64,000 nt of DNA from Azolla caroliniana (GCA_043228905.1 JBHGNT010000016.1:4154001-4218000); one strand, 5' to 3'; numbered from the stretch's first letter, positions 18,073 to 61,100 are shown. Notes: generated by a model from the sequence alone, not told the origin. A program made the numbers and translations.

Positions 18073-18088
18073 GACGGGTGGCAAGGAG

Positions 18089-20128: not shown

Positions 20129-20182
20129 AGCGGACTGTTGCGGAGTGGGGAAGTGATAGTCCGAGAAGGCCTGATACCCCAC
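20119..20182 (+). promoter_or_regulatory. Putative -1 ribosomal frameshift signal (GGAUUUU + H-type pseudoknot)
   Basis: Slippery site at the gag-PR stop, open -1 frame into pol, 11-bp stem 20131-20141/20153-20163, loop GTGGGG complementary to CCCCAC 20177-20182. Confidence 0.75.
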
Positions 20183-23100: not shown

Positions 23101-23730
23101 GTAATGCCAACGGAAACCGCAATCGCGACATGGACAATACTACCGTGGAAGGAAGAGATGAGCCGGGAAGAACTACTAGCGGTCCGGATACGACAACTGG
23201 AGGGAAGACCGAAAGATGTAGCGGAAGCGTCACGCCGACAACAAGAAGCACGGTTCCGGAACAAAAGCCGGTTCGACACAAAGCACCGACTACGACCGAG
23301 GAGGATTGAAGAAGGAGATTGGGTGATCGTCTATGATAGTAGCTTGGACCATCAACATACAACGATGCGGAAATTCGCGAAAAGGTGGTTCGGGCCGTAC
23401 GAGGTTCGGAAGGTCTTCGACAACGGGACGTACCGACTGTCCGAGTTGGATGGAACAATACTACGAGTGCCTATAGCCGGGAAGCGGGTGAAGATTTTCA
23501 AGAAGCGGACCAACGACAAACCTTATGTGATCCAAGTCGAGGCCGACAAAGAGGAGCAATCGGACGAAGACCACAATGATGCGGGAAGCGAAGAAAGTGG
23601 ATTACAACTCATAGTCGACATAAGGGGAGAATCGGAGGAAGCTTCGGACGAAGACGGATACGAAGAATCAAGAACTTCGGCACATACCGGAGGATGTGCG
23701 GGTTTGGAGGGGGCGAGTGTCGTAGTGTAG
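20122..23730 (+). CDS. pol: Gypsy D Pol (RT-RNase H-integrase), -1 frame relative to gag
   Basis: GDLYSGY, LPQG, FLDD, VDTS, HHCC zinc finger, DDE core, GPY. No stops; the stop codon lies inside the 3' LTR. Confidence 0.92.
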   Translation, partial: FLKRTVAEWGSDSPRRPDTPHRKKTLGAKQVRIGPDGASTYTAVTGGMKKQYRQVEDKLRSASIIKEDEEIVGVIEEVFYGNTLQRLEELAEDKSQGNRVVPVESVEMYEIVAKMGPDALRKEEAMVSTKYKTVEKKVKPAAGPLPADSEQKKKEVSGDPTLRESVDIGHAFTDETRKKLRIGGGGFLLQEEEKRFREMLEQHGKAFAFTSREIGCIDPKIVEPMVIFTIDHVPWNLKPIPVPRAHIPKVIDLLKEKVAMGILEPSSAPYSNRWFTVPKKNGSLRFIQDLQPVNKVTIRNSGVGPIVDEFAEAFAGRAIYSIGDLYSGYDQFQLAVESRDITTMRTPIGLVRMCTLPQGATNSVAHMMNAMNKVLRDCIPEITMPFLDDIPMKGCAVEEKDETMDDRGCRKFVVDHIHDCEKVLRKLEDVHLTLSGEKSAFGQEEILVVGHLCGPYGRRPSPTKIDAIQAMKEVCESTSEVRRFLGACAFYHIWIPHYAHIADPLYHLLRKGKKFEWKPEHTKAMRKLKKTLWRAESLKKPSYERPIIVTVDTSPTGIGWVINQADSDGSRYPIRFGAKVLNERQRGYAQVKRELWGVVSAIKSDRDYLIGAEVVIETDCLPILGMMRCCTIPDVAMLRWIAYVKSLNPEVRHISGKDNAVADMLSRARFEDDITESDNEEVSEDYFTSEHICRVNVIREFREEEYEGETLMIGKMLQEVEDSTNDKERRAEIRRKKRQVQKFFLENGLIWRTPKRPDGIPLRVVGTKEQRNRIISEFHESDWAGHRGTWATFVKIKQRYWWKNMYKDVAEFTESCEKCQVYSGVRHRDELHPTFSPTINFKWMVDIVAMPTGIGQKKYLVLAREDLTNQVEGRALRRKTCAAVCRFLLEEVFCRYGCVGQVIADRGELDSDKARGFFAKHGVRLTLTTAYNPEANGKIERGHSAIVKALAKACDGRVKDWPQMLPYALWADRTTHSSVTGYMPAELMTGQAPVMPTETAIATWTILPWKEEMSREELLAVRIRQLEGRPKDVAEASRRQQEARFRNKSRFDTKHRLRPRRIEEGDWVIVYDSSLDHQHTTMRKFAKRWFGPYEVRKVFDNGTYRLSELDGTILRVPIAGKRVKIFKKRTNDKPYVIQVEADKEEQSDEDHNDAGSEESGLQLIVDIRGESEEASDEDGYEESRTSAHTGGCAGLEGASVVV

Positions 23731-28911: not shown

Positions 28912-31292
28912 CCGGCTAACGCTAAGTAGTGGACGGTCTCCGCGTGTCGGGCCGCCGCCTCTTCCATCAGCCTTTTCATTCCTCCTCGCCCGTCGTTTCG
29001 GTTCAAGGCCCTCCGGGTATCGCTAGCGTGCACCCGACCTTCCCACAGGTACACTACACGGCTTCTCAAAGCCTCCGCAAAGTCCCCGCAGTCTTTCCGG
29101 ATGTGGCCGACCTCGTCGCACCACATGCACCTATTTCCTGCCGAAGGCCGTCGGTCACGAGCCTGATCGCCGCCTTCCCTCTGAGCCTGAGCGATCTAGA
29201 GATCCTTTACCGCCCGTGTCAACTCCTCCAAAGTTGTCCCCCCGGACGAGCCTCTGACCACGCCGGTCGAAGCCAAACCGGTTTCGAGCCACTCCCGGGT
29301 CTCTTCCCGTCGCGCCTGCGGTATCGGTTCGAGCTTCCTTGCTGCGACAGGACCCGCCCCGGTCGACCCTGTATCAGCCCACTCCCACCGTTTGTCAAAA
29401 CGGCCGCAGACTCTTTTTACCGCGGCCTAGTCGGCCGTCAGCCCGTCTTCGGTTTCCAGTAAGGAGCCCACTTGCTCCCGATCCCGTGCGTCAACCGATT
29501 TGACAAACAGTAGGACACGACTTGTGTCCAGAACGGTCCGATCGAGCGCCGAAAGGCGCGCAAAGCGATCCTCAAACTCCCGGAGGAGTGCCGACGCATT
29601 TCTTCCTTTGTCGGGGGACTCCACCCACTCCATGAAGCCCCACTTCGAAAGTCGAAGCACGTCATCCAACCCGTATTTCTCCAGGAGCCGTCCTTCGAAC
29701 TCCTCCCAGGTTCGGCTCTCCGCCCGGACCTCGAGCACCTCCGCATGGATGCCCGGCATCGCCACTCGAGGGAATCCGACAAGACGCCTCTCTTCCGGAA
29801 TATCCCTCATCAACATCTCCGCCCGGTAGGACGCCAAATAACTCGTGGCATCCTTTCCACTGAACCGGCCGATCATACCGACGATCGCCTCAATAGCCCT
29901 GTCAAGGGCGTCGGTGCCCACGCGCACGCTCACTATCCGGTCCACGGCCGAAGCCATGGCCTCTGCAAGATCCGACCCCCTCATCTTCTGCTCCTCTGCC
30001 GCATTTCACGTCGGGTTCACCAAAGATTCCACGTTGTTACGCGCGTGCGTGGAGAAACGAGGCGGAACCACCGGGGTCTTGGACCAAAGAGCAGGTGATG
30101 GGAGGGGAAAGAGAAAGAGAGAGACGACCGGTAACGTATGAGCAAAGAAACACAGGGACACGGCCCGTCAACGCAGAAAACATGAATGGACACTGAGACA
30201 GAGAGACACGAATGTTTGTATATTATCAAATGACACAAAACAACAGAGCACGCAAGCGGTTACAACCAAACAGGCCGGCGAACAGATGCTGATGCCTGTT
30301 CATCTGCGCACGAAAGGGAATAGGATGGAGGTGCTGCCGGAAGCACACGGGCGTTCCTCGAAGCAGCGCGAGCCTCCCGAAATTCTGCAGAGAAGAGCGA
30401 CGGAGAATGAACAGAGGAGAAGCGTTCGGTTACGGTTCGACAGCACTTCGTCCTCCTCAATGCGCGATCCCCTTCTCCCCACGTCTCCCTCTCTTTTATA
30501 GCTTCAGGAAGGGAGCCGTCTCCCCCATTTACTTCCTACCTACCGAATCTAACTACCCCGGATATGCCTATGTACCTAATTCCCTATTATATAAATTAAA
30601 GGGCGTGCACGCGTGAAGAGCCGGTTCACGCGCGCTATGCACCGATTGCGCTAAGGGACGGTTTTCTTCACGACAACGCGAACATCTGACACTTACTACG
30701 AGACTATAACTGCCTAGTAGTCTAAACTAATATTAGGCTTCCGGTTACCGATTGGATCCGGCTAACCGGCTCCCCAGCTCACCGGCTCTGTTGCTTGCCA
30801 GCTCAGTTGCTCACCAGCTTACCAATCCATCTCGCTCACCAGCTCAGGCTTATCCAGCTGATTCGGCTCCAGTTGAGCTTGCCGCTCAACACTCCCCCTC
30901 AAGCTCAACTTGAGGTTGGATCCTAGTGTCAGCCTCTGTGGCAGTCGGTTCTTCCAACTGACTTCTCATGGCGTCGCTCCGCCTTGCTCGCGCTCCTCAT
31001 CCGATCCGGTCCCATTTGCCGTGACCCTTCTGGTTCTGCACGCCTCGATCTTCTTGGTCGGCATGTCTAATCAATAGGCCCCTCTCAGCTCCTTCGATGC
31101 TATGACTCCGGCGCTTGCCGATCCGTCGGTTCCTCCGCGATGGCATCAACTTCCGCTGCATCTGTGTCTGCTTGGCCTCTAGTTGATTTGGTTCATCAGG
31201 ATCCATCTATTGATCCGAATCGGCTGTCTCCGATTCGTTCCAGCTCTTGTCTGAGTCGGTATCCTCCGACTCGTCTTTCGGTTTAAGGCCCT

Positions 31293-32737
31293 TCACCACA
31301 TCAGACCACGTCCAGTCTTGGCCTTGCTTCCATCCTCGGCTTCTTCAACCGGTTCACCAAAGTCGAATTCTTCATTCGACTCCGTATCTCGATCACTGCC
31401 GCCGTGATGATGATGACTAACTCCGCATAGTATGCACTTTTCTTCCTGCGTGCACACTTCTTCTTTCCGGTTGGCTCGGTCCTCCTTGACCTTGCCACCA
31501 CTGCTGCTCGTTCCGACTTGTTCAGACGTGCCGACTTTCTTCGTCGACTCGGCTTCTTTTTCCTCCTTGTCTCCCCCTCTTCCGGTTCTTCCCTTACTGG
31601 TGTCGGCAACAGTTTCTTTGCCTTTGCCCGTTCCGGCAGTGTCTTTGCCCCTTCTTCTCCCCCTCAAGTGTGGCACTTTGAGATGTTGAACACCAAGCAT
31701 GTCGGTAAAGTGTTGCAACTTGTCCGATCCGAGCGGCTTGGTGAAGATGTCGGCAACTTGCCGATCCGTGTGAACATATCGTACTTCAACTTCACCGCTC
31801 AGGACCCGCTCATGCACAAAGTGATAATGCACTTCTACATGCTTCGTGCGAGCATGGAACACAGGGTTCTTGGGAGCTACATGCTGCTAATGTTATCACA
31901 ATAAATCGGGATCGGGGTCAGTACCTCGATCCGCAAGTCTCACAGCAATCGCCGAAGCCAAATGGCTTCACAGGTGGCAACGGTTGCGCCTCGGTACTCA
32001 ACCTCAATGCTTGGCAGAGCCACTGTTGGCTGCTTTTTGCTGCTCCACGCAACAGTTGCGCTCCCAAGGGAAAACATAAAACCGGAAGTGGATCTGCGAT
32101 CCGACGCATCGCCGGCCCAATCGGCATCCGTGTAACCGACTAGCTCTTCGGTTATACCTCGCCGGTATAACAGTCCCCGGTCCTTCGTGCCGCTTACATA
32201 TCGCAGTATCCGTTGCGCACATTGAAGGTGCTCCACGGTCGGCTTCTGCATGAATTGACTTATCGTTCCGACCGGATAGCTGATGTTGGGTCGTGTGATA
32301 GTCAAGTAAATAAGGCTTCCGAGAATTTGTCGAAACCATTTCTCGTTGCAGGCTGGTCTGGAGTTAGGACGAAGCTTCTGGTTCCAGTCCAAGGGTGTGG
32401 AGATAGGTCAGCATTCTGTCATTCCGAACTTGTACAGCATATTCAAGATGTAATGTCGTTGTGAGAGCAATATGTCGTCAGGGGTTCGGATCACCTCGAT
32501 CCCAAGAAAATAATGAAGGTCCCCCAGGTCCTTCATCTCAAATGCGTCCAACAACTGGGACTTGACGCGGTTGACTTCTGGAAGACCCGGTCCGGTGATG
32601 ACTAAATAATCAACATACAACAGGATACATACCGGACCGGCTGAGCCTTGCTGGATGAACAACGAAGAGTCGAACTTGGAGGTCACAAACCCCATCTTAC
32701 GCAACCGGTGCGTGATCTTCGGATTCCAAGCTCGAGG
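31293..32737 (-). pseudogene. Copia B RT C-terminus and RNase H, with charged C-terminal extension
   Basis: LLYVDY(D), MKDLG, ITRP, GYTDADWAGD, WSSKKQ, FHARTKHVEVHYHF, ADIFTK; stops and frameshifts present. Confidence 0.9.
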
Positions 32738-33168
32738 TGTTATTCGCTAGCCGGACAAGGCCTAACACAAGGTGTCACGGAGACACTTCACCAAAGGGTG
32801 ATTACGGCATAGGATTAAGATTCAACGATTACACCGACTTACGTAGGTTACACGATTAGATTGCTTTGGTTAATTACACGCGTAAGATATCACAATAAGT
32901 ACAGAACGGAAATCAACACAGAAGTATAAACACCATATGCTCATTTAATTATCCGCTGCGATTACAATGGGGTCCGGGCCTTTAAATAGGTTTCCGGCCC
33001 GTAGTACAAAACGGTGCCTATCGCACCTATTCGGGATCCGTCCGGATCTGGAACGGCATACCGTTTCCAGTCCGTCCGTCCACACTATGCTCATTTACAA
33101 CCATATTTAATTAATTCCTTCACTCCGTATTTTTGGACTCCTTGCCGGCCGGTAACACATGGCACGCC

Positions 33169-35737
33169 GGGAACCTAGGAAGCAAGGACGAATCAAAGCC
33201 GGTACACATCGCCAAAGAAATGAAGCCGGAAGATAAAGCGGCGATGATCAAACTTCTCACGGAGTTTCGCGACATATTCGCCTGGTCATACGAAGACATG
33301 CGAATGGGGGGTGTTTGTGGCCGAAGTAATGATGTTCGGCCTAAAAACGGCACCAGCAACTTTCCAGCGAATTATCATGGAGATCTTTGGCGAATACATT
33401 CCTGCCTTCATGCAGGTCTTCCTGGATGATTTTGCAGTCTATAGCCGGGGAAAAGACCATTTGCAGCACCTACGGTTATGCCTTGAAAAGTGTAGGTTAT
33501 ACCGGCTAAGCTTAAACCCAGCAAAATGCATCTTTGGGGTTTCAAGTGGAATCTTACTGGGACACATTGTAAGTAAGGAGGGCATTGCGGTCGACCAGGA
33601 CAAAGTAAACGCTATACTAGGGGCACCGGCGCCGAAAACGGCCAAAGCACTAAGCCGATTCTTAGGACAGATCCGGTGGCACAGCCGGATGCTCCGTCAC
33701 TTGGCTGACTTGGCTACACCATTACACACCGCGGTACATCGGACACCGTTCCAATGGACGGATACGGAGGATAAGGCATACAATGCCCTGAAGGTACTTT
33801 TGTCGCAAGCACCCGTCGTGCAGCCTCCGGATTGGAGCAAGGAATTTCATGTGTTCGTGGACGCTTCCGACATCGCTATCGGCAGCGCCTTAATGCAACT
33901 TACGGAGCCCAAATGGTACCGGCCGGTATATTACGCCAGCCGGAAGCTGTCCCAAGCGGAGAAGAACTATTCGACTACAGAACGGGAGGCCCTGGGCATG
34001 ATCTACAGTGTCACAAAGTTTCGTCATTACCTATTGGGAAGGAAGTTCTCCTTTCATGTGGATCACTCGGCGCTCCTGTACTTAGTGTCCAAGGCGTCCC
34101 TGACCGGTAAGTTGGCCCGTTGGACCTTGCTGTTGCAGGAGTTCGAATTCGAGATCTTCCACCGGCCCGGTATCCAGCATGCCGTAGCAGACTATCTGAG
34201 CCGGTTAGAGTCCGGAGAATCAGGCGACGGAGTAGCGGATGAATTCCCGGACGTAGAGTTATTCCGTATCACCCCGGAAACGGCAGCGGACGACACAGTG
34301 GCATCAGAAGATAGGTGACTGACAAACATGCACCAGTTCCTAAGCACAGGCCTGCCACCGGAGGAAATGAACCGGGACGAGAGGAAACGACTGGCGGTGC
34401 AGAGCCGCAATTTCTGTCTGTTACGGGACACTCTCTACCACAAAGGAGCAGATGGAATATGGAGACGGGCAGTCCGTAGTGACGAGAAACAAGTAATCTT
34501 ACGGGAAGCACACTGTGGGGTTGCCGGAGGACACTATGCCGGGGAAGCGACGGCAAGGAAAGTATGGCAGAGCGGCTTATTGTGGCCCACGACGTTAAAA
34601 GACGCCGTCAAGTATGCTAAGGAATGTGACCTATGCCAACGAATGGGCCAGCCTACGGAGCAAGCACGGATGCCACACCAACCGGTACTTCCACTAGAGC
34701 CATTCCAGAAGTGGGGGTTGGATTTTGTCGGACCGTTCAAGCCACCGGCAATGAGAACGGGTAATCGTTATGTCATCGTGGCAACAGATTATTGCACTAA
34801 ATGGGTGGAGGCTAAGGCCTTGAGAGACAATACCGCATCATCCACAGCAAAATTCCTGTACGAGAACATTTGGTGCCGATATGGATGTCCGATTGAATTA
34901 ATCAGCGACCAAGGAGGGCACTTCCTCGGCCAGGTAGTGGAAAGCTTAACAACGTTCTATGCCGTGGTTCATAAACGGAGCACACCGTACTACCCACAAG
35001 CGAACGGGTTAGCAGAGTCCACCAACAAAACGCTGCAGAACATTCTCCGCAAAATCGTCAATGAAAACCGGACGGACTGGGATACAAAGCTCCATAGCGC
35101 GCTATGGGCGTACCGGACGGCATACAAAACAAGTATCCGGACAACGCCGTTCCGGTTAGCGTTCGGCTTAGAGGCGGTCATGCCGGTGGAATTTCAGGTA
35201 CCAAGCTTACGGATCCAACTACGGGAACGGCTGAATGAAAAGGAGTCGGAAGAAAGGCGGCTAGCAGCACTATGCGAACTGGAGGAGCAACGGCTGGCCA
35301 GCATCCTACACATGGAGCTGGAGCAACAACGACGGAAAGCGTTCGTTGACCGTCACCGAAAAGGTAATGAAAAGATGTTCGAAATCGGAAAGCCGGTGCT
35401 AGTATTCCAAACGAGGATGGGCAAGATGCCGGGTAAACTCCGGTTTAGATGGACAGGCCCGTATTGGCTGACACGGGAATACAACGGGTCCTATCAGATA
35501 GGGACACTTGCCGGTGAAGTACTAGGCAAGTGGGTGAACGGATTTAGACTAAAGCCGTATAAAGGACCGATGCCAAATAACCCGTTTATGCAGCCCACCG
35601 GCACTATACCGGGAACCTGTCCGGGAACGGTACGGAAAGAAGAAAAAGTCGACGGGGAACCCGTAGCAGAGGCAAAGGAAGACACGGCAACCCGTAAGGA
35701 AAACGGTAAGGGTCCGAAGGGACCTACGGATGGGTAA
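33169..35737 (+). pseudogene. pol: Gypsy G pol fragment (partial RT, RNase H, integrase)
   Basis: FRDIFAWSYEDM, internal RT deletion ~33302, MFGLK, FLDD, VDASD, EKNYSTTERE, WGLDFVGP, SDQG, NGLAES, GPY. Trp-to-stop at 34316. Confidence 0.9.
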
Positions 35738-36174
35738 TATCACATACCGTCATTTTAAAATAATAATAATAATAAATAATAATAATAAAAGAAATCATTA
35801 AAAATCGAGGTATGAACGGACGTGAAAGCAAGGAGCGAAAAGGTACGAAGTGGGCATTTAAGAGCCACCACGCTACTTAATACTAAATTGGTACACGACG
35901 TGTGCATGCTCGAAAAAGGCGCCAAGACGCACAGAGAAGAAGCAAAACGCATGGAGACCTTTTCATTTCACGAGCCAAGAAGCACAGAAGCACCAAGGCA
36001 GTGGAAGCTTAGCAAACGCGAACCTGCACTCAGAGTACCGCCGCGTTCAAAACGCTCTCTCTCTCGCTCTCACTCTCACCACCACTCTACCTCGCCATCT
36101 TTCCTCGACCTCGAAGCAGACATGGAACCACAAACGCTGTCGGAAGCGGCCAGGAAATGGTTCAGGCAACACGG

Positions 36175-39100
36175 TGTCGTAGTGTATTTCGTACACTACG
36201 TGAAAAAGTAAAAAATAATATAAACGATTTAATTACATATAAATAAATAAAATAAGAATATCAAAATGTTTGTCACGTGCATAGGGCAGGATTCGAACCC
36301 TATACCTCCACATAGCCAAACCTCAACTTTACCATTATGCTACCTTACCTTTAGTGTTCTATAAATAGATTTAATAACTATAAGTGCTTTATTTGCACCT
36401 ACCTTTATTAAAAGGTAAATCGTGCATTTTTAGAGTGCGTGAATATTTTATAGAAAAACGCAAGCAACTAAAAAGTGACTCATGCACATCTAGCGTGCAT
36501 GAGCACTATATTTAGCAAATAAAAGCAAGGATTAGAAAAGCATCACATGCATATTTAGTGTGCATGAACATATTAGAAAAAAAGCATGTAGCTATGCTTA
36601 GTCTCTCCCATCACTACATAAGGATGGGGAGCACAATGTAATAGTGTGTGAAATATTTGGGAAATTGGATATATTTCCTAAAACACCAATTAATATACTC
36701 GTGGGATTCACGAATGTTGCCATAAAAAATTACTCTTATAATCTAAATATTGTTTTAAAATACACTAAACTCGTGGGATTCACGAGATTACTATCTTACT
36801 TCTCTTCCTATTATTCATAACTAGCCTTAAGTTGTATTCCTCTTCCTCCTAGTCCAAAACCTCAGCGGTTCCCACCCGACTCACGCAACGATCTGGAGCC
36901 GAAAGGCACGACACAGTTGGTGAACCCGACGTGAAGGCGGGTGGTAAGGAGATGGAGAATCAACAAGAGGCAATGAGCATAACGATGATGATGATGTTCG
37001 AGCGGATGCTACAAGAACAACGAGCGATGTCGGAGATCACGGGGGCAGTAAAGCGGCTCGTACAACGAAACGGGGAATTCAACGGTAAGGGTGTGTCACG
37101 CTACCTACGTGAATATAAGGCGGAGATGATGCAATATCGGATACCGGAAGGATTGCAAGTGATATCCTTTAGTCGGGTGGCCTCGGACGAACTACAAGAG
37201 AGAATCCACAAGATACAACAACAAAACTCGACATGGGAGTCCTTTGAAGAAGCTTTACGGGAGGCATATGACTATGAGAGATGGAAGGGACGAGATCGAC
37301 GAGAATTCGACGAATGGGTGGCGTCGGAGAAGACTCACCGAAGTGCAACGCAAGCGTTCCTAGAGTTCGAGCATCGTTTTGCTCGACTCTCGGAGCGGGA
37401 ACGAAGATTGGTGGGAGAAGATAAAGTCTTAATGTTCGTAAGATCGATCGATCGGAAAGAAAGGATGGACATTGGGATCGAACTCGAAGATGATGACGGT
37501 GCGAACGGCCTTACCGAGGATTGGGCCAAAGTCGAAAGGGTATGCCGAAGACATGATGAAAGGAAGCTGAGAATCTCGTCAACAACGACATGGCCCATGA
37601 AGGATGGTCGATTGAGGAAAAACGATGAAGCCAATATGAAGGCCGAAATACAACATGATGGTACCACGGGAGAAAGAGTGGAACAAGACACCCACTCGTC
37701 TTGTGAAAGAACGATGGCGAAGGATAAGGCCGATAATTCAAGTGTAGAAGGAAATTTCGGGATACAAGTGCCCGAGACATCGGGTCAAAAAGGGGTAAGC
37801 ATAATAGATGTTTGCATAATTGATGCAGATAAAGAGTGTGAAGCGGATGTGATTAAGGAGGTAGCCACAAAAGACGAAATCGAATCGGAGGTGGCTATGG
37901 ACGAATCAATGGCGGATTGCCATATCGAGACTTCCCCACCACTGATTCCAGAGACTCCGGCGGTTGCGATCGAAAGGCAACGTGAGACCGAAGAGACGGA
38001 AGGTGGCGGAGAGAAAACAAAGGTCGAAGTCGATGCATACAACGGAGAGATAGCCGAGAATATGGCTATGGGTGAAACAATGGAGGATGATAATACCGAG
38101 GATTCCTACCCACTAATCCTAGAGACTTCGGCGGTTGTGTCTGAGAAGCAACGTGAGACCGGAGAGACGGGAGGTGGCGGCAAGAAAGGTAAAGTCGGAA
38201 GCCGGTTCGGATGGAAGGTGATCCGGACGGGATTCCGATCCGAAAGAAAGCCGAACCGGGTAAAAGACGATTCGGCCAAAAGACGATCCGGAAAGAAGCT
38301 AATCCGACTCAACCGAAGGTTGGACCGGTCGAGGCTGGTGAAAACGAGGAAAAGAAAGCCAACCGAAACCGAAACCGATAGATTGAAACCGGGCCGGAAG
38401 GAGACCGACTCAATCGAAACCGAACAACCGATTCCGATTCGGCTAAATACGAATCCGATCAGAAGCCGATCATACCGAAAGTCGATCGGACGAGAGCGAT
38501 CCGGAAAAAAGTCAAGGTTGATGAAGACAAGAAAGGGGCCAGTAAAAGACACTACCACGAATGACAAGGGCCAAGAATATGACGAGAGAGAACAAAGAAT
38601 ATGGTGGATCGGATGGCAACAATGGTTCGGGTGGAAAGAATGGGTCTACTCAAAATGGAGAGACAAAGTTGACATAGCGGGACAAACGGAGGATGAAGGG
38701 GAGACAACGAGCATCGGCAACTTCGGCACATACCGGAGGATGTGCGGGTTCGGAGGGGGCGAGTGTCGTAGTGTATTTCGTACACTACGTGAAAAAGTAA
38801 AAAATAATATAAACGATTTAATTACATATAAATAAATAAAATAAGAATATCAAAATATTTGTCACGTGCATAGGGCAGGATTTGAACCCTATACCTCCAC
38901 GTAGCCAAACCTCAACTTTACCATTATGCTACCTTACCTTTAGTGTTCTATAAATAGATTTAATAACTATAAGTGCTTTATTTGCACCTACCTTTATTAA
39001 AAGGTAAATCGTGCATTTTTAGAGTGCGTGAATATTTTGTAGAAAAACGCAAGCAACTAAAAAGTGACTCATGCACATCTAGCGTGCATGAGCACTATAT

Positions 39101-39503
39101 TTAGCAAATAAAAGCAAGGATTAGAAAAGCATCACATGCATATTTAGTGTGCATGAACATATTAGAAAAAAAGCATGTAGCTATGCTTAGTCTCTCCCAT
39201 CACTACATAAGGATGGGGAGCACAATGTAATAGTGTGTGAAATATTTGGGAAATTGGATATATTTCCTAAAACACCAATTAATATACTCGTGGGATTCAC
39301 GAATGTTGCCATAAAAAAATTACTCTTATAATCTAAATATTGTTTTAAAATACACTAAACTCGTGGGATTCACGAGATTACTATCTTACTTCTCTTCCTA
39401 TTATTCATAACTAGCCTTAAGTTGTATTCCTCTTCCTCCTAGTCCAAAACCTCAGCGGTTCCCACCCGACTCACGCAACGATCTGGAGCCGAAAGGCACG
39501 ACA
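36175..39503 (+). mobile_element. Element E, non-autonomous gag-only LTR element of the D family
   Basis: LTRs 36175-36913 and 38764-39503, TSD ACGG, Trp PBS, same PPT as D, no pol. Confidence 0.94.
36952..38835 (+). CDS. Gag-derived protein with acidic, basic and Trp-rich tail (element E)
   Basis: N-terminus aligns with D Gag (RLVQRNGxFNGK.VSRYL..YKAEM, DKVxMF, GLTExW); open 627 codons. Confidence 0.8.
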   Translation: MENQQEAMSITMMMMFERMLQEQRAMSEITGAVKRLVQRNGEFNGKGVSRYLREYKAEMMQYRIPEGLQVISFSRVASDELQERIHKIQQQNSTWESFEEALREAYDYERWKGRDRREFDEWVASEKTHRSATQAFLEFEHRFARLSERERRLVGEDKVLMFVRSIDRKERMDIGIELEDDDGANGLTEDWAKVERVCRRHDERKLRISSTTTWPMKDGRLRKNDEANMKAEIQHDGTTGERVEQDTHSSCERTMAKDKADNSSVEGNFGIQVPETSGQKGVSIIDVCIIDADKECEADVIKEVATKDEIESEVAMDESMADCHIETSPPLIPETPAVAIERQRETEETEGGGEKTKVEVDAYNGEIAENMAMGETMEDDNTEDSYPLILETSAVVSEKQRETGETGGGGKKGKVGSRFGWKVIRTGFRSERKPNRVKDDSAKRRSGKKLIRLNRRLDRSRLVKTRKRKPTETETDRLKPGRKETDSIETEQPIPIRLNTNPIRSRSYRKSIGRERSGKKSRLMKTRKGPVKDTTTNDKGQEYDEREQRIWWIGWQQWFGWKEWVYSKWRDKVDIAGQTEDEGETTSIGNFGTYRRMCGFGGGECRSVFRTLREKVKNNINDLITYK

Positions 39504-42097
39504 ACGGACTGGAGGGGTTCTTGACCATCATGGAGGCACCGCCGCACAGAGAAGCCGACCGGGTCATCAAGGAGCTCGACACGGAAGTCATCACCGAGGA
39601 AGCGATCCGTGCGCTAACAGGCCTTCCGGAGGGAGGTATTTTTCAAATCGATAACCCAACCTCGGAGCAACTCACCCGATATTTCGGTGAGTACTCTGTT
39701 GCCGGCAAAGGCTATCGAACGCAGGGCGGCGAAGATCCGCTATTCAGGGAGATAGCTCGAGTGCTCCATGAGTACGGCCACGTGTACCCCCGACCCCCTG
39801 TCATGCCAAAAAATCGGGCAGGGATGATCATAGCCACCTATGAAGGGATCAAGGTGGACTGGCCGGTGTTGATTGCAGACGGTTTGTGCGCGGCAATCGA
39901 CATGGTACGAGGGAAGGACGGCAAGGAGGGCCGGAAGCTGTGGCATGCCGTAGCACAGTGGATAACATTGCTCGTGCCGCCGGTCAAGACCGTTCAGCCA
40001 AAGAAGCGGCCAAGATTATCGGAAGGAAGCACCCCGAAGCCCGCGTCCAAACGACAGCAGCTGCTGGCGTCAAAGGCGACGAAAGGAAAGAAACGGCTCC
40101 CAGAACCGGAGGAGGTGTCACCGGTCCGACCCGTTAAGATAACCATACGGCGACCGGGACAGAAGGAACCGGAACCCTTGACGGCACAGAAACATGCCGT
40201 TACCCAGGAAGAGGAAACGGAGGAGCCAGAAGAGCACCTCCAACGACGGTCAAGAAGTAGGACCGCCGGGACAGCGGGGGAGCGTTCGTACCCGCAAGAG
40301 GAAGAAACGTCCCCAACTCAACCTGAGCAGACCACAAGGGAGGAACCGGAACCGGTGCGTATGGTACCGGCCTTGTCGACTTCTATAGAAGAAGTCATTC
40401 CAACGGCTCCGGAGACGGCGAGAACCGGAACTCAACAGCCGGCGAGCCCAGCCAGCACACACGGCGGCCAAGGAGTAGGACCAGTACAGCAGCAGGGCAC
40501 CAGTAGCATGTGGCTACGGTGGGTAGGTGAGCAGATCGCCGGAGCGGTCGAGTACATAGAGGCGGAGGAGAGAGCGCACAACGAACGGTTGCTCGTCACA
40601 ACCGTAGATCTAGAGACGACCCGGTCTAGAATCCGGAGCCTTGAACAAGACTTGGACAGGGTCACAAGGGAAATGGCTCAATTGGCTTTGACAACACAAG
40701 TCCAAGCACCGGTGACTCCGGGCAATGTACAGAATAAAGCGTCAGATCAACCTGTACATAGCAATCAGACCCCGGTAACGGAAACCGTTCCGGAGAGAAA
40801 TGCGGCACAAGCCCAAGAGCTTCCGGACTTAAAGGATGAGCTAGCTGCCCAAGAAGCGTTGAGGAGCCGCGAAAGAGAATTGAAGACGGCAGCGGAGGCG
40901 GAACTCAAAAAGACGGCTGAGAATCTACGCCGAGCCGAGGAGAGCTTACGAAAAGGCCACCAAGCGTACGACCGGCTCAAGGAGGAAAAGGAGAAAATGC
41001 TGCAAGAGAAGGACAGACTCCGGAGAAACGCCGAAACAGAAGTAGAGCGCCTGAAAGAGGAACTCCGGCAGATAAAGGACCGGGAGGACCGGAACCATCG
41101 CCAGATCAACGGCAAGCTCAAACAAAAAACGGAGGAATTTGAGCACTTGCACCGGGAGTATAAACGGTTGCAAACGGAGCACAAGGAACGGACGGATGAG
41201 CTCCGGCAAGCAGTTGATCGGACCGCAACGGCATACGCTAATGAACAAGCGGAAACCAGAAGACGGTTGGAAGAGGCGGAGAAGGTTCGGACAGAGCTCC
41301 TCAGGCAACAGCAGGCGGAAAAAGAAAGAGCGGCGGAGGTACTGCAGAGGCTGCAGACAACATATCAAGGGCAGCTGACGCGCTACAGAGAGCAGGCGGA
41401 GGATACGGCGAATCTCATCAAGCAGTTGAAGGAGGAGCGACAAGTGGTGGAAAGTAGAGCGCAAATGGGAGCAAGTCGCATCCAGGATATCATGCGGGCC
41501 TGGTTGAACCAGACCAAGAGCTTGATTGACAACGGCTCCGTCAAATGGTGGACCAAGTGGGCCACGAACGCGGCGGAACTCCAATTGCTCCGGGCCGACG
41601 TAGAGAACCGGCGGAAGGAGGGAGATGATTGCTATATGCTGACTTCTGAAGACTTCACCGGCATAAGAGATGAGCTGGCCGAAGACTTTCAAGCCTTGGC
41701 AGAGGACCAACTAGGGCGAGTCCGGCAACTTGTAGCTCAACTGGACGACGACAGGCTGGAGGCGCAGATCCAGTTTGAAAGCTACGAGAGGTCCCGGATC
41801 CGGGAAGAGAAAGCACGAGAACCGGTTACGGTCAACCTCAGTAATGAGGAACCGTTACTGGAAGGAGACCGGACCGGAAGCAGTCAAACGGAGATGCCAG
41901 AGTCAGAGAAACAAACGGAGCAGCCGCCGATAGAGCAGCCGGAACAGCCTCAGTCCCAACCGCAACCACAGCAGCAGCAGCAAGCACAGCCGCAACAACC
42001 ACAACCGGAAGAACAAGTGGAAATTCTGGAACAAAGTATTTTGGACAATTTGGGTGAACAATGAAGGGGCCGAGAAGGGTTCGACGTACAAGGTACT

Positions 42098-42114
42098 GTC
42101 CCACGGGCGTGCCA
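42098..42114 (-). promoter_or_regulatory. tRNA-Arg(UCU)-type primer binding site on the minus strand (TGGCACGCCCGTGGGAC)
   Basis: Matches the Tat-type Arg PBS pattern TGGCACGCCC(A/G)GTGGGAC with a 1-nt gap; 2 nt from the LTR edge. Confidence 0.7.
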
Positions 42115-42536
42115 TGTGTTACCGGCCGGCAAGGAGTCCAAAAATACGGAGTGAAGGAATTAATTAAATATGGTTGTAAATGAGCATAGTGTGGACGGAC
42201 GGACTGGAAACGGTATGCCGTTCCAGATCCGGACGGATCCCGAATAGGTGCGATAGGCACTGTTTTGTACTACGGGCCGGAAACCTATTTAAAGGCCCGG
42301 ACCCCATTGTAATCGCAGCGGATAATTAAATGAGCATATGGTGTTTATACTTCTGTGTTGATTTCCATTCTGTACTTATTGTGATATCTTACGCGTGTAA
42401 TTAACCAAAGCAATCTAATCGTGTAACCTACGTAAGTCGGTGTAATCGTTGAATCTTAATCCTATGCCGTAATCACCCTTTGGTGAAGTGTCTCCGTGAC
42501 ACCTTGTGTTAGGCCTTGTCCGGCTAGCGAATAACA

Positions 42537-43534
42537 CACACTTCCTCTGATTTGGAAGTGGTCTTCTTCATCGAGTTCACCTCGTGCTTTATCACCAAGG
42601 CTGGTCCATTACCGTTCTTGGATCCTCCCGATCCCTTCGCGTAGTGCGAGCTTTGTCGGCCATCCTTGCTGGCCTTGCCGGATCCTGATTTGTCCGAATC
42701 GGCACGTTTTCTCCAGCACTCGCTTTCTCTGTGGCCCTTTTTGCCACAGTACCAGCATTCCATTGCAGTCTTCTCTTGCCGTCTTCCGGTGCCGCCATAA
42801 CTCCCCCTGCTCCCGGAGGGTCCGAAATTGTTGTCGACATGTTCTCTATGCCTTTGTTCCTGGTCTTGTCGGCCGCCTCCATTGTGTGCCGACCCGCCTT
42901 GTCCACCACGCCCACGGGACCGATCCGCTTCCGTGTACAACATCTGGTTGTCAATGGGTGCGCTAGTTGGCGCACCGGCGTGGTTCTCCTCTACAAGGAG
43001 CATCGATTGTAAGTCGAAAAATGACGGCGTATTCTCCCTTGTACATACCACCGTTCGGAACGCTCTGAACTTACACGCCAGGCCCCCAAGACAGACCTGT
43101 ACCATCTCGTCTTCCTCTACGGTAACGTTGATAGAGGCAAGCGAGTCACAGATCTCCTTGATTCGGGCCATGTAATCCGCCACCGACATGTCCTTCTGTC
43201 GGACATTGCTCAACTCCTATCGGAGTTGCAGCTTCTGGGTTGTAGTGCTCGCGGCGAAAACCTTCTTCAGGTTTCCCCAAGCCTCCTTCGGCGTCTTGGC
43301 GTCTCGGATGTGGTTCAACAGCTGGTCTCCGACACTGGACGCGAAGCAATACATCAATCTGCTTGCCGATTGTTCCCACACTGGGAAATCCTTATGTGCC
43401 ACATCAGGTGCTATTTCGTTGGCTCCTTCGACGAAACTCCAGTAGCCATGCCCAAGTAGGTACTGGTGCATCTTGTACAACCAAGATGCGTAGTTGGATT
43501 TGTCGAGTTTCTCCACAAGGAGTGAGCTAGCCAT
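42537..43534 (-). pseudogene. gag: Copia B gag, truncated at the protease start
   Basis: EKLDKSNYASW, KEAWGNL, CWYCGKKGHRESEC; stop at 43217; ends EEV(W) at the G junction. Confidence 0.9.
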
Positions 43535-43661
43535 TCCTCTATCCATCACTTCTCTGTCTGCTGTTCTTATGACCTGTTAGGGTTTGCTTTCAAGCGTTTG
43601 TGGGTTGCAGGGGTTCTCAACCTCACTATGATACCATGTAATCAATTACTTGCGGAAGCGT

Positions 43662-55674: not shown

Positions 55675-57454
55675 CACTTTCATGACCTATTCAATAGCCA
55701 AAAATATCAAACAGGTCAATGTGCCTATGTTTGTTAATTAACATGAACTACACATCTACAAGACCCTTATACTCTAACGATATGGTTGTGTAAATGGATT
55801 ACATTCACTATGATTTTGTATCAGCCCTTTAGATAGGAGTAAGATGCAACTACCTCCAACTTTTCTTCTAGAAAAATGTCTTCATAATTTCACTTTCCAT
55901 GGTCCAAGGGTGGAAATAATACCATTTTGTATTTCCTTTAAAGAAATGTTATAGCTCGTTAAGAAAACAAGATATATAATACCATAGCTTGTCATATAGT
56001 ATTAGCATTTTGCGAGTCATGCAACAATCATCATAATGATAGAACAATTTAATATTTTTTGACAAGCATGTTCATTGTCCTTATTTCATCCAATATATAT
56101 GACTAAGAATAAGATGTGTACCTTGGGATAAAATAAAATTTTGAAATAAAGTAAATGCATCAAATGATAAATCATGTTGGTTGAGGAACAACATTTGTGT
56201 GATGACAAAAACACTAATTTTGTTTAGCAAAGAATATAGGAGAAAATGAATGATACATATTGGTCCCACATTGGCAAAGCATGAGACTGAAATGATCTTA
56301 ACCATGAAAGCAGCATACCCCTTAATGGGGAACCATGTACATTCAAATCCCAATGAGGACAAAAAACCTTCTTGTTATATCAAACGTTAACAACCAACAA
56401 TGTGTTGAGATAAACATCTTTAACCAAGGCTCCTCAATCTTTATGTCGGTTTGGTCCATATGATGCTTTATCACCATCATTTTCTTCCCTATGAGTGATG
56501 GGCTTCCTACTTCCTTTTTTCATTTCAAGGCTTCTTGGAACTCCGTTACTTTTATGAATGGATAAAAAAAACACATTTTTATTGACACCAAGCACCAAGC
56601 ACTTCGAGGAAAAAGAGTGCATGCGAGGTGAAAAACCGGGTGCATGTTAAAAAAAAGAGTTACGATTTTTATTTGCATGAGGTGCTCCTAAGGCCTATAA
56701 AAGGGAGAGGAGAGTTCATTGCAAAAGGGGATTTTTTAGACCAAGGTGGACGCATGGGTTCAAGTGACTCAAGAGGGCGTTCAAGATCACCAATTGCAAA
56801 AGGCAATGAAGTCGTTGAGTTGGTCCTTTGAACTAAAACTTGAGGATATCCCCCCAAAGTTCTATCTACATATCAAATATCTCTATCTTATTTATCTATT
56901 TACCTCCTAAGTCACTCCATGTAACAGAGTTGAGAATCATCTCACTTATATCTAAATCAACTTTTCAATCTCCGATGTATTTTGCCTTTTCGGTATTCAT
57001 AAATTTTTTTATAGGAAAATCGACTATCTAATGTTATTTGTTATTAAATGGGGATTGGAATGGATTTCTCGGCTCCGAAATCCTAGCTCGAAACACAAAT
57101 TTACACTATTCGGATTAAAATTTTGTGAGAAGACATGCCCTCAAATCACCACATCGAGAAACTCATATCGTTGACAAGAAGAATTTGTCACGAGATTTCT
57201 GTGAGATTTTTTGGATCATGATTCTGACCACGGTGTGAGAAGTTGGAGCCTTCTCCTCGCTCCAATCTTCTCCTCCTCAAACGTTCTCGTTGTTGGAGGA
57301 AGTGAGTGTCATGATGTTTCAACACATAGCTTGAAACCATCCCCATTAGGGAGTAAAATAATGATATGAGGATGTAAGCCAATATGCCACAAAGGTGTAT
57401 TTGGGAAAGGCAAGAATTCAAACCATGGACCTTCAAGGTATAAGCATTGTATTT

Positions 57455-58135
57455 ACCAATAGGATAACTACTATTGAGTATTTGATTTTGTATAAATAGT
57501 TTTAGATATCAATTGATGTCAAAAACCACTAAAACAAAACCACGGTCCACATGCGCAAACCCTTGGTTTCAATGTTGGAAGCCCATGACCAATAGGGTAA
57601 CTACTATAGAGTGTTTGATTTCTCACAAGTAAATTTGACATGTGAATAGATAGTCAAAAACCACTAAAACAAAACCACATGTGCAAACCCCTGGTTTCAA
57701 TGTTGAAAGCCCATGACCAATGGGGTAACTACTATGGAGAGTTTGATTTCTCAGAGATAAATTTTACATGTGAATAGATAGCCAAAAACCACTAAACAAT
57801 TGATGTAAAAATAGTTTTAGATATCAATTGATGTCAAAAACCACTCAAACAAAACCACATCAGGGGTTTCAATGTTGGAAGCCCATGACCAATAGGGTAA
57901 CTACTATAGAGTGTTTGATTTCTCACAGGTCAATTTGACATGTGAATAGATAGTCAAAAAGCACTAAAAGAAAACCACATGTGCAAACCCCTGGTTTCAA
58001 TGTTGAAAGCCCATGACCAATGGGGTAACTACTATGGAGAGTTTGATTCCTCAGAGATAAATTTTACATGTGAATAGATAGTCAAAAACCACTCAAACAA
58101 AACCACGTGCGCAAACCCATGGTTCCAATGTTGGT
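57455..58135. repeat. ~130-bp tandem repeat with a 300-bp higher-order duplication
   Basis: ACCAATRGGRTAACTACTAT at ~57455, 57588, 57716, 57888 and 58016. Confidence 0.85.
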
Positions 58136-58199
58136 TTAAGTCCTTGGTGGTTACACTCACGTTTCACACATACACGGTAGCTTCACAACAACGTTAAAA

Positions 58200-61100
58200 C
58201 GAAATTTCTTGAATCTATGATTCAACAATGGGTGGACCAACAAGTACTCTAAATATCATTACATCTAGCATGGGCCCTAGTGTGAAAGGGTAGGAACTGG
58301 AGTCTGTGAAGCCTCCTCCTACTATACCACACATGTGCGTCAAAGGGCAAGTGAACTTTGACTTCGGTAAAGGATCGGACAACTTCCTCCATAGTTGAAT
58401 ATTGTCTCACGTCAATACCACATCTTCAATTCTTAACGTGTAAAATCTCATTTGGCATTTTCTAGTTCATGGCATCGTAATCCCATTGATCTCCCAAAAT
58501 TTGGAGACTTACACAATTGAGTCTCAAAGCGATCTATCTATTCATGTATGTATGTACGTAATGTACTTTGAGACAATGTTGTACAACCAATATGCATTCA
58601 AGTTTCCCACATATGCCCAAGAAGGCTTGGTCCATTAGGAACAATTTCATTTTTTCCAAAAGTTAGCATTGTTAGAGGGATGTTCTAAAAAGTCTTATGA
58701 CCTTCAAGCTTCAACGTTGAAAGGAGAATAGTCACAAAGATTTAACTAAGCCCAATCCTCCATAAAATTGGTCACAACTTTAACAATCCACTTAGTAGCC
58801 AATCTGGAAAATAATATATGGAGATGAAGGATTCATATAACCAACCCTTCTGGATTTTGGGAGAAGTGTAAATATTAAATACAAGTTTGGGGGGCATGAA
58901 CTATGATTTTACCTCAAAGTAAAGAAACTCAAAATAAACTATCCAATCCAACCATATGATCTACACACTCTCACAATTAAGCCATATGCTTGGTGTCTGT
59001 GCCAGAACGTATCACTAAAGTATGAAGATATTTCTTTCAAGGATGGGCTTTCAACCTTGTTCGAATAGGAGGTAAATGAGAAGACTATAATCCTTGTTTC
59101 ATTGAAATTGATATTTGTACTTCAAGCAATACACATATCTCTAAGTATTCCAAAAAAAAATTCATAGATGTCTTATTGTCCTTTACCAAACCATTGGTGT
59201 CATCAACAAATTCAATACTTCCAACTCACCTTTGTTTATCTTGTCTTGGACTAGCTAAGTTAGTTCATATGTACCAATAGCACGCAATAGAGGGGCAAGT
59301 GGGAAACCTTACCTAATGGATCATGTGTGACAAAAGAGCTCAATCAACAACAATCAATGGTAATATGGGCAATAGCATTACCAAAAAGTATAATAGCAAA
59401 ACTAATCAATCTCTTTCATATATCATATGCATTGTCAAAATTAGTTTTGTAAAACAAAGTCTTGATTGATTTTGAGGTATAATATAAATCACCTTCTTGT
59501 AAAACCCTTAGGTTCTTCTGTTATGAAATTGTTCATCTGGCCATGGAATCTATTGTCTATAACTTTGGCAAATATTTTATATGTAGAAGTGAGATCTTGA
59601 CTTTTGTAATTTATCCTTCTTATCTCCTTCATGTGGATGTAAGCTTGTGTATTCTTGATGAGTATCAACGACGTCTAGGATGAAAATTTCTTTGAAATTG
59701 TTGTAAAACTCATTTGGGATCCATACAAATCTAGTCTTTTACCTTGTTGTAGCAACTCAATGACCTTATCAATGTCCTCTTTCAACGTAAAAGAATCATG
59801 AGAGTTGTAATATTGGAGGGTTCCTTGTTTTGTTTCTTGCTCTAGTTTCTTAACGTATGCTCTCTACTTCTCCTTTGTCATGGTTTTAGGAAGACGAGAA
59901 GATATTATTGTATCAACAACATTTTTTCGTTAAGAGTAGTTTCATTTGTTATGCGAAGAAAGAGATATTTTCTTCTAATTTACTTCAAAGTGCACTTTAT
60001 ATTTGCTAGATTTTCTTCTAATGCTCTTAAACAAGGAAGAAATAGCCTTGCCACCTTGTGTGATCTTCCGCTGAGAGAGCTTTTTGTTGGCATCTTTAGC
60101 TTCTTTGGAAATATAGCTTTCAAGCATAAAATGTCTTGTTGACCATTCACTTCACCTTCACCACCATTCTTTCCATTGATCCTAGTCTTTCATGATCAAT
60201 AACTTTCTCAAGATTTTTTGTGTCATTGATGTGTTTCTTGACTTCGATAATAAGTTGTCTCATGACAAACCCCACTATTTGGTGGAATTTAAAGGGCATT
60301 GTGGAATTTTTTCTTTCAAACGGTACTTGTTTTATCTTTGCCATATTCCTTATCAAGTAAAGATATCAACATGAAACCAACTTGCTTTTCTATTTACAAC
60401 TTTCCCTCAATAGGTTTCAGTCAAACATGGTAATGGTGAGGTAATAATTGGATTTAGTATGTTAGGAATAGTCTAGAATGTCATTATTGAGAAAATATTT
60501 GTCCACACTAGTTTTCCTATGTTGGTTAACACTTCTAAAGTTTCCCAAAGTAAATTCCACATTTCTTGTGATGCAAACCAAGGGATGTTTGTTGGTTGTG
60601 TGAAAGGTTGTAGCACTATAACAATTAATGTTATGTAGATTGGTCATGTATGACGATAAAAGGGATGAATATCAAATCACAATGTTAATTTTGGTATTAA
60701 GGTATCTTGTTGATAGTATTAAAGGAGATGTAAACATGTACTTGGCACAATTGATAACCTTTAATAGTTGTAGGTGAGGAACAGTGTAATCAATTTGATT
60801 GTTTTCCCTTCCTCACATTCATGTAAAAGAAGGCTAAGATTAAGAAGGAATTTCTATCTCTCTCTCGGTTGGTCTCACATTCTTGAGGATTAGTTCGCTC
60901 TCTAATTCTCTAGTTTTTTCCATCAAGATTAGTAAGAAAAATAGCAACCCCATCACCTCTCTTGGCACCTCTTATATGATCATTACTAGAGTTGTGCTCC
61001 TAATTTGTTGTCACCTCTTAGCACCTTTCGTATCACCATTCATAGAGTTGTGCTCCTAATTGGCTTTTGTAGCCTCTAAGAACCACCATGTCATGGTCAT

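What the first reader, a model, noticed from the sequence alone, without database searches (positions are those of the whole stretch)
42061..42536. Gypsy G has a tRNA-Arg 3'-end sequence where the polypurine tract should be: possible tRNA-primed plus strand or antisense-templated replication
Seen: downstream of sense pol and the extra ORF, the LTR at 42117 is preceded not by a PPT but by GGGTTCGA-cgtacaaggtact-GTCCCACGGGCGTGCCA-TG. Established: plant tRNA-Arg(UCU) ends about GTGGGTTCGAGTCCCACCGGG(C/T)GTGCCA, and Tat elements use its complement as PBS. The minus strand therefore carries a 17-nt PBS plus a separate T-arm match, with a small GTAC/GTAC hairpin looped out between them. Seen: the LTR's promoter-like CCTATTTAAAGG..CCCCATTGTAA and its T-rich U5-like part read in the plus (coding) direction, and the tRNA-like block begins ~12 nt after the extra ORF's stop. 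Inference: either plus-strand DNA is primed by tRNA on the minus cDNA, or the packaged template is antisense to the coding strand. I do not know of either in plant LTR elements.
Basis: partly seen in the sequence, partly recalled or inferred. Interest (0 to 1): 0.8.

Follow-up and report, generated by a model that had tools for sequence, protein, structure and literature searches.

The report
Retrotransposon primes both strands with tRNA
A lineage of plant jumping genes carries a conserved match to an arginine tRNA's tail exactly where the purine tract that starts the second DNA strand normally sits, and a few genomic copies have the host tRNA's own sequence fused at that end, so a second tRNA likely primes that strand, a route not found in the papers searched.

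Summary
Confirmed and lineage-wide. Of 20 copies fetched, 18 have direct LTRs and pol, 17 of them with exact 5-bp TSDs. A 13-nt tRNA-Arg(UCG) PBS follows the 5' LTR. A tRNA-Arg(UCU)-sense block ends 2 nt before the 3' LTR, with no PPT. The block's core occurs at 2,101 genomic sites (control 0), in families with different LTRs and in metagenome contigs, and its inserted hairpin covaries (0/500 shuffles).

Polarity is conventional: aberrant copies show the UCG site re-copied from tRNA up to A58, so an antisense template is unlikely. Four independent loci carry host tRNA-Arg(UCU) itself, including the C the elements lack, fused outside a 5' LTR. That is the footprint expected of an unremoved plus-strand tRNA primer.

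Best model (0.8): a second tRNA anneals to minus-strand cDNA and primes the plus strand. A primer cut from the element's own RNA is not excluded, and nothing was shown biochemically. The window's copy is rearranged, with an inverted left LTR. Ten literature searches found no precedent. This scan noted the same block in at least eight other pieces of this genome.

The parts
32738..33157 (-). Inverted copy of the LTR; peculiar to this rearranged copy
   Evidence: 2 mismatches to 42117-42536; flanks cgagg / cacac, no TSD
33158..33168 (-). 2-nt spacer plus the 9 terminal bases of the tRNA-Arg(UCU) site, joined to pol
33171..35737 (+). 5'-truncated pol (RT, RNase H, integrase); 398-nt deletion in RT near 33303, in-frame stop at 34316-34318; gag and 5' PBS absent in this copy
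35738..36174 (+). pol-to-extra-ORF spacer and start of the extra ORF
   Evidence: aligns to element positions up to 6775
36175..39503 (+). Unrelated nested LTR element inserted in the extra ORF; 4-bp TSD ACGG
39504..42064 (+). Remainder of the sense extra ORF (long frame, about 870-970 codons stop to stop in other copies; no Pfam hit)
42077..42084 (+). Match to tRNA-Arg T-arm, positions 51-58
42085..42097 (+). 13-nt insert with a covarying 4-bp hairpin (42086-42096), placed between tRNA positions 58 and 59
42098..42114 (+). tRNA-Arg(UCU) 3' end, positions 59-76 minus one C, ending in CCA; its complement on the minus strand is the proposed plus-strand primer-binding site
42115..42116 (+). 2-nt spacer between CCA and the LTR, as between a PPT and U3
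42117..42536 (+). 3' LTR, 420 bp, TG...CA; TATA-like motif at 42284-42295

Best explanation
This is a young Ty3/gypsy non-chromovirus lineage with no polypurine tract, in which a host tRNA likely primes each DNA strand. Shown in sequence: coding-sense elements carry a 13-nt PBS for tRNA-Arg(UCG) after the 5' LTR (Arg(UCU) in some sister families) and a tRNA-Arg(UCU)-sense block ending 2 nt before the 3' LTR. Inferred steps: (1) tRNA-Arg(UCG) primes the minus strand on the sense RNA. (2) Once the minus strand has crossed U3 and RNase H has cleared the RNA, the copied block is an exposed binding site for mature tRNA-Arg(UCU): 11 terminal bases pair, possibly helped by further T-arm pairing around a hairpin looped out at m1A58. 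(3) RT extends the tRNA's CCA end to make plus-strand strong-stop DNA, which is copied into the first tRNA up to A58 and then transfers. (4) RNase H normally removes the second tRNA, leaving two extra bases for integrase to trim. When removal fails, the tRNA is copied and appears outside the 5' LTR. Speculative: the bulge and hairpin keep the tRNA:DNA hybrid too short for RNase H to destroy the primer before it is used.
For: Architecture: 18 of 20 fetched copies have direct LTRs; all 18 have the PBS after the 5' LTR and the block, with no PPT, before the 3' LTR; 17 have exact TSDs. The host tRNA genes match both sites. Polarity: 100 genomic sites extend the UCG complement to at least 17 nt. 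All 30 examined follow an LTR end; 23 of 30 stop at exactly 18 nt; both isodecoders appear (26 and 4); the 4 of this family jump into sense internal sequence. Plus-strand primer footprint: 4 independent loci carry the host tRNA-Arg(UCU) version, with the C the elements lack, outside a 5' LTR, each element keeping its own hairpin-type block at the 3' LTR. They are 57 nt including the anticodon arm (this family); 18 nt at two LTR-LTR junctions of one TSD-flanked element; a long copy with T at A58; and 18 nt with one substitution. Three of the four use the UCG PBS, so Arg(UCU) is not their minus-strand primer. Conservation: majority-base frequency is 0.85 in the T-arm match against 0.40 upstream and 0.54 in the LTR. 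The hairpin is 95.8% paired, with 23 cells changed on both sides, 0/500 shuffles and above all slid controls. In metagenome contigs, 43 of 45 sites with a protein hit lie downstream of sense ORFs. Block-bearing families form one clade (100/100).
Against: No biochemical or cDNA-intermediate data. The tRNA junctions are rare (0 of 60 unselected 5' LTRs) and were found by a pattern that asked for them. A retained element-derived RNA primer followed by a template switch onto tRNA could give the same junctions, and my tally of element-version junctions was unbalanced. The basal hairpin pair is G-U on the sense strand in 5 of 24 representatives against 1 A-C, which hints that the hairpin may matter on the RNA. 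One family changes A58 and T60 together, keeping an intramolecular pair but losing tRNA pairing, so the T-arm contact may be a relic. The 24 representatives are related, so the shuffle counts are not probabilities. A tRNA:DNA hybrid is an RNase H substrate, and how it would survive is inferred only.
Confidence: 0.8

Rival explanations
1. The block is a PPT substitute cut from the element's own RNA. The tRNA-like sense RNA (hairpin plus CCA end) is spared and cut by RNase H after CCA and primes the plus strand. Real tRNA enters rare junctions by a later template switch through the 10-11 shared bases.
For: The sense RNA carries the block at the PPT position with the same 2-nt spacer. G-U pairs at the hairpin base fit the sense strand. 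The A58/T60 co-change keeps an intramolecular pair.
Against: All 4 clear junctions outside a 5' LTR are the tRNA version. Among genome loci held, 0 of 31 distinct element-version blocks preceded an LTR followed by a PBS (biased sample). There is no obvious reason for an RNA-derived primer to keep identity to the host acceptor end across families whose LTRs and extra ORFs have diverged.
Confidence: 0.12
2. The packaged template is antisense to gag-pol, so the block is the true PBS and Arg(UCG) primes the second strand.
For: The block's complement looks like a PBS 2 nt from an LTR end. The tRNA-outside-5'-LTR junctions fit this order too. No stranded RNA data were available.
Against: The site re-copied from tRNA up to A58 and mis-transferred into internal sequence is the UCG site (100 sites). 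The UCU block keeps its missing C, and only 7 perfect 18-nt + 2-nt sites exist; none of the 24 tolerant matches showed perfect tRNA replacing the block after a sense extra ORF. The TATA-like motif reads in the coding direction.
Confidence: 0.03
3. The block has another job (RNA circularisation, dimerisation, packaging or strand transfer), and the plus strand is primed in some other way at the same base.
For: In families whose 5' PBS is also Arg(UCU), block and PBS are complementary. The hairpin is under structural constraint.
Against: In this family the PBS is Arg(UCG) and shares only 4 bases of complementarity with the block, yet the block is unchanged. No purine tract is conserved upstream. 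The LTR edge is fixed 2 nt after CCA. This reading does not explain the tRNA junctions.
Confidence: 0.04
4. A chance tail-to-tail fusion at this locus.
For: The window copy is indeed rearranged, with an inverted left LTR and no TSD.
Against: The block is at the 3' LTR of 18 of 18 two-LTR copies and in many other families.
Confidence: 0.01

Closest known systems
Canonical LTR-retroelement replication (retroviruses, Ty1, Ty3, plant Ty1/Ty3; passages of PMC3185662 and PMC7197481)
   Same: tRNA-primed minus strand at a PBS after the 5' LTR; plus strand copied into the primer tRNA up to methylated A58; TG...CA LTRs with TSD.
   Different: The plus-strand primer there is an RNase H-resistant purine tract of the element's own RNA. 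Here no purine tract exists (purine share 0.47 in the 15 nt, against 0.73-0.87 for four other LTRs in the window), and a tRNA site takes its place.
Plant non-chromovirus Ty3/gypsy: OTA (Athila, Tat/Ogre/Retand), Phygy, Selgy (Neumann et al. 2019, PMC6317226, passages and Additional file 5)
   Same: gag-RT-RH-INT order, no chromodomain hit, 5-bp TSD, about 9.8 kb, extra ORF after pol, tRNA-Arg PBS as in Ogre, TatIII and some Retand; nests among non-chromovirus proteins of liverworts, ferns and seed plants.
   Different: No additional RNase H (so not Tat); PBS is not Asp/Asn/Ala (unlike Athila); TSD is not 4 bp (unlike Phygy and Selgy); extra ORF is sense, not antisense as in Retand (abstract of PMC11963269). 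The passages read describe no tRNA site before the 3' LTR.
Extended tRNA contacts: Ty3 bipartite PBS, HIV-1 primer activation signal (recalled; no call)
   Same: Pairing with the tRNA T-arm in addition to the acceptor end.
   Different: Those are complementary to tRNA on the RNA and serve minus-strand priming. Here the RNA carries the tRNA-sense sequence, so only the minus-strand DNA can bind tRNA.
Tf1/sushi and Tcn1 self-priming (passages of PMC10085805, PMC6317226)
   Same: A departure from standard priming in Ty3/gypsy elements.
   Different: It replaces the minus-strand tRNA and keeps the PPT, the opposite change.
cqgypsy_1 of Culex, with tRNA copies in the PBS region (passages of PMC3286476)
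   Same: CCA-ended tRNA-like sequence next to an LTR.
   Different: One element, at the 5' PBS, described as an insertion; not a conserved PPT replacement.

Membership tests
Ty3/gypsy LTR retrotransposon | gag, RT, RNase H, integrase in that order | tested here: met
   on a related copy (protease not detected by Pfam at E 0.01)
Ty3/gypsy LTR retrotransposon | Direct TG...CA LTRs with TSD | tested here: met
   18 of 20 copies have two direct LTRs, 17 with exact 5-bp TSD, 1 with one mismatch; the window copy itself is an inverted-LTR rearrangement
Ty3/gypsy LTR retrotransposon | tRNA PBS after the 5' LTR | tested here: met
   13-nt match to host tRNA-Arg(UCG); 285 exact LTR-end/PBS sites; 60 of 60 sampled
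Ty3/gypsy LTR retrotransposon | Polypurine tract before the 3' LTR | tested here: not met
Tat (TatI-III, Ogre, Retand) | Additional (archaeal-type) RNase H domain | tested here: not met
   no such hit; PF13456 is listed for three angiosperm hits
Athila | No aRH, 5-bp TSD | tested here: met
Athila | PBS for tRNA-Asp/Asn/Ala | tested here: not met
   Arg(UCG) or Arg(UCU) here; table
Athila | RT-RH clusters with Athila references | tested here: inconclusive
   lies outside the seed-plant clade without aRH; no curated Athila references were on hand, and lineage labels are my inference
Athila | Athila-type extra ORF | tested here: inconclusive
   no Pfam hit; feature hits PF20167 (0.83) and PF03078 (0.82) are under 0.9, leads only
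Phygy / Selgy | 4-bp TSD; tRNA-Trp or tRNA-Ala PBS; no extra ORF | tested here: not met
Self-priming elements (Tf1/sushi, Tcn1) | Minus strand primed by the element's own RNA | tested here: not met
   PBS re-copied from two tRNA-Arg(UCG) isodecoders
Dual tRNA priming (proposed) | tRNA covalently joined to plus strong-stop DNA in particles | not testable with these tools
   only fossil genomic junctions

The most novel reading that the evidence does not exclude
A whole, recently active clade of plant LTR retrotransposons has dropped the polypurine tract and primes both DNA strands with host tRNAs, the second on a structured DNA site that loops a hairpin out at m1A58; no retroelement is known to start its plus strand this way.
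Probability: 0.8. Interest if true: 0.9.

Novelty: new variant of a known kind. Interest (0 to 1): 0.85.

Why it matters
PPT priming is treated as a rule for LTR retrotransposons and retroviruses (passages of PMC3185662, PMC7197481). A successful lineage (hundreds of young copies of this family, some 2,000 related sites in one genome) that apparently replaces it with a tRNA would show that RT can start on a tRNA:DNA hybrid in vivo and that RNase H can spare, then remove, such a primer. It makes testable how plus-strand primers are selected, and how a new priming signal can arise from a captured tRNA copy. It adds a second target for tRNA-fragment control of transposons (inference). Annotation tools that score a PPT would mark such elements as defective or place them in the wrong orientation. 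The element belongs to a known kind, but the priming route has no counterpart in the papers searched.

Tried and rejected
Inverted LTRs as the family's normal form (suggested): rejected, because 18 of 18 two-LTR copies are direct.

A displaced PPT in the purine-rich run 35-50 nt upstream: rejected. It is not conserved (0.40), and TSDs fix the edge 2 nt after CCA.

Seven of the 24 tolerant tRNA matches (L151, 152, 153, 158, 162, 164, 168) were dropped from the plus-strand evidence. They appear to be ordinary 5' PBSs of a non-autonomous family, judged by similarity to L126, L224 and L266. L157, L166 and L169 are block variants. L149, L150, L159, L160 and L165 could not be assigned as plus-strand events. 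L161 and L163 (63 and 64 nt of tRNA) are candidates only. L146 and L148 duplicate the L147 event.

Unselected sample of 60 5' LTRs: no retained primer of either version (59 host edges, 1 without an LTR start), so it does not separate the two main readings.

The pattern of substitutions in the T-arm match fits tRNA pairing but is expected from base composition; it was not used.

RNA: no RNA holder was listed, and the two contig runs laid gave no strand or start.

Size of the Copia stretch lost between the window's two arms: no locus held both flanks, so it was not measured.

Sequence look-up of earlier notes was blank.

The tRNA:minus-strand co-fold used RNA parameters for a DNA strand and is illustrative only.

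Additional file 1 of PMC6317226 (per-element table) was too large to read and may list such elements.

Full report
1. Observation. The window shows, on the + strand: the extra ORF's stop (42062-42064), 12 nt, GGGTTCGA, a 13-nt insert with a GTAC/GTAC stem, a 17-nt tRNA-like tail ending in CCA, TG, and an LTR at 42117-42536. Host tRNA genes were found by pattern (66 and 3 matches; 18 loci read, 10 called by ARAGORN). The tail equals tRNA-Arg(UCU) positions 59-76 with one C missing, and the insert sits between positions 58 and 59.

2. The window copy is atypical. Its left arm, 32738-33157, is an inverted copy of the same LTR (2 mismatches), followed by the spacer, 9 bases of the tRNA site and a truncated pol. 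There is no TSD, and an unrelated element is nested at 36175-39503. The family therefore had to be read elsewhere.

3. Family structure. A search with 42050-42540 gave 41 matches from 40 scored of 2,315 candidates; 40 cover the whole junction. 29 of 30 loci print the motif; the thirtieth has one substitution. I extended 20 of these loci to 20 kb. Eighteen have two direct LTRs with pol and the extra ORF in sense (one internally deleted, one with a nested insertion), and 2 are truncated. The 18 have LTR pairs with 0-5 mismatches, 17 exact 5-bp TSDs and one with a mismatch. After every 5' LTR comes a 6-nt spacer and a PBS; before every 3' LTR comes the block, with no PPT. The PBS matches host tRNA-Arg(UCG) over 13 nt (one of the 18 has a substitution). 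There are 285 exact LTR-end/PBS sites. Pfam gives gag, zinc knuckle, RT, RNase H and integrase, no additional RNase H, and nothing for the extra ORF.

4. Lineage. The 10-nt core + 2 nt + TGT occurs at 2,101 sites (control 0); 220 sites have the longer core with a spacer not starting in T. Of 11 regions sampled for other spacers, 7 show the hairpin block downstream of a sense extra ORF, behind LTRs with different starts, and two of these use Arg(UCU) at the 5' PBS as well. Metagenome contigs gave 118 matches in 114 loci. 45 had a protein hit upstream: 43 in sense, 2 antisense and more than 1.3 kb away; 73 had none. Extra-ORF identities of 25-74% suggest other hosts, which I did not identify. 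In a 55-row RT-RH tree, all 7 block-bearing rows plus two unnamed proteins form one clade (100/100) among non-chromovirus proteins of liverworts and ferns (two candidate proteins and one window element failed the length or hit filter; long branches are flagged at the root).

5. Structure of the block. 121 distinct sites fell into 42 clusters by flank. 24 in-register representatives were counted, and 18 with shifts or a lost T-arm match were left out. Majority-base frequency is 0.85 in the T-arm match, 0.40 upstream and 0.54 in the LTR; the tail's conservation is partly imposed by the search. The 4-bp hairpin is 95.8% paired, and its two middle pairs switch independently (UA/GC 13:10, AU/GC 13:11), 0/500 shuffles, above all slid controls. 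A 7-bp extension is 94% paired. Against a simple picture: 5 G-U pairs at the hairpin base fit the sense strand, and one family changes A58 and T60 together.

6. Which strand is the template. In retroviruses the plus strand copies the primer tRNA up to methylated A58 (passage of PMC3185662). Here 100 sites extend the UCG complement beyond the normal 13 nt. All 30 examined follow an LTR end. The match is 18 nt in 23, 17 in 3, 19 in 3 and 39 in 1, and both isodecoders appear. The four of this family continue in sense internal sequence. These read as mis-transferred plus strong-stop DNA, so Arg(UCG) is the minus-strand primer on a sense RNA (inference from standard replication). The UCU block, by contrast, keeps its missing C.

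7. Footprint of a second tRNA. A perfect 18-nt UCU end + 2 nt + TGT occurs at 7 sites, and at 24 with a tolerant pattern. After reading each, 4 independent events place the host-tRNA version outside a 5' LTR of an element that keeps its own block at the 3' LTR. (a) G000:C2 near 12.01 Mb: 57 nt of tRNA, this family, UCG PBS, locally triplicated. (b) C16 near 17.53 Mb: a TSD-flanked element with three 5' LTRs, whose two junctions read U5 spacer + one PBS base, 18 nt of tRNA, the element's own 2-nt spacer, then U3. (c) C2 near 12.74 Mb: a long tRNA copy with T at position 58, as expected of RT misreading m1A (recalled). (d) C20 near 0.88 Mb: 18 nt with one substitution. The other sites are accounted for under Tried and rejected. 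Such junctions are rare: 0 of 60 unselected 5' LTRs. They are what an unremoved plus-strand tRNA primer would leave. A template switch from a retained element RNA primer is possible but needs an extra step.

8. Mechanism. Shown: the two sites, their conservation, the hairpin, the fossil junctions. Inferred: order of priming, annealing on minus-strand DNA, RNase H sparing and removal. Confidence 0.8; rivals 0.12, 0.04, 0.03 and 0.01.

9. Literature. Ten full-text searches gave no description of a tRNA-primed plus strand or of a tRNA site replacing the PPT. The library lacks most subscription papers. Seen: PMC6317226, passages and Additional file 5 (Additional file 1 unreadable); PMC11963269, abstract and outline; PMC3286476, PMC10085805, PMC3185662 and PMC7197481, passages. 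Other papers were seen as listings only. The Ty3 bipartite PBS, the HIV-1 activation signal and m1A misreading are recalled. Eight earlier AI notes on this genome state the same idea; they are not independent support, and one calls the host a fern, which I did not test.

10. Verdict. A real, lineage-wide feature. This is a known kind of element with a priming route not found in the papers searched; interest 0.85.

Noticed in passing
window 36175-39503; related LTRs at about 17205/23718 and 43662/46132: Nested element with a 4-bp TSD of NCGN form (ACGG), a normal purine tract and a PBS that looks like tRNA-Trp (identity recalled). These are the marks listed for Phygy, described as specific to Physcomitrella patens. 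The window's gag-pol at 17990-23730 may be its autonomous partner.
   Followed up: partly
window 32738-33171; L127 (G000:C1 near 26.33 Mb): Copies with an inverted LTR joined through the tRNA site. L127 has an internal inverted LTR-block within one TSD-flanked insertion. This suggests that nascent minus DNA folds back or switches template at this site.
   Followed up: partly
window 31000-32737 and 42537-43640 (minus strand): The two arms are flanked by Copia RT on the left and Copia gag on the right, with the part between them missing, as after a non-concerted integration; size not measured.
   Followed up: partly
L126, L156 (L173-L174), L224, L266: Small non-autonomous elements (about 1.3-2.7 kb) keep a PBS and the hairpin block; some have a 10-nt Arg(UCU) PBS only 2 nt from the LTR. 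The block behaves as a required cis signal.
   Followed up: partly
L071, L072, L073, L116: Aberrant elements with 39 to 76 nt of the minus-strand primer tRNA copied next to the LTR, that is read-through past A58.
   Followed up: partly
L177-L178 (G000:C16 near 17.53 Mb): The junction keeps the whole 11-nt spacer plus one PBS base, implying a long overhang at the U5 end that integrase or another nuclease must remove.
   Followed up: no
G000:C4 19.5-20.1 Mb, C11 0.69-0.70 Mb, C22 1.43-1.51 Mb: Clusters of tRNA-Arg(UCU)-like genes, many about 0.7 kb apart, against only 3 matches for Arg(UCG).
   Followed up: no
window 6140-7169, 9341-9548, 57437-58224: Tandem arrays with periods of 146 nt, about 52 nt and 128 nt.
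   Followed up: no
extra ORF, residues 60-320 of the L045 copy: Weak language-model likeness to PF20167 and Athila ORF-1 clusters (0.82-0.83); function unknown.
   Followed up: partly
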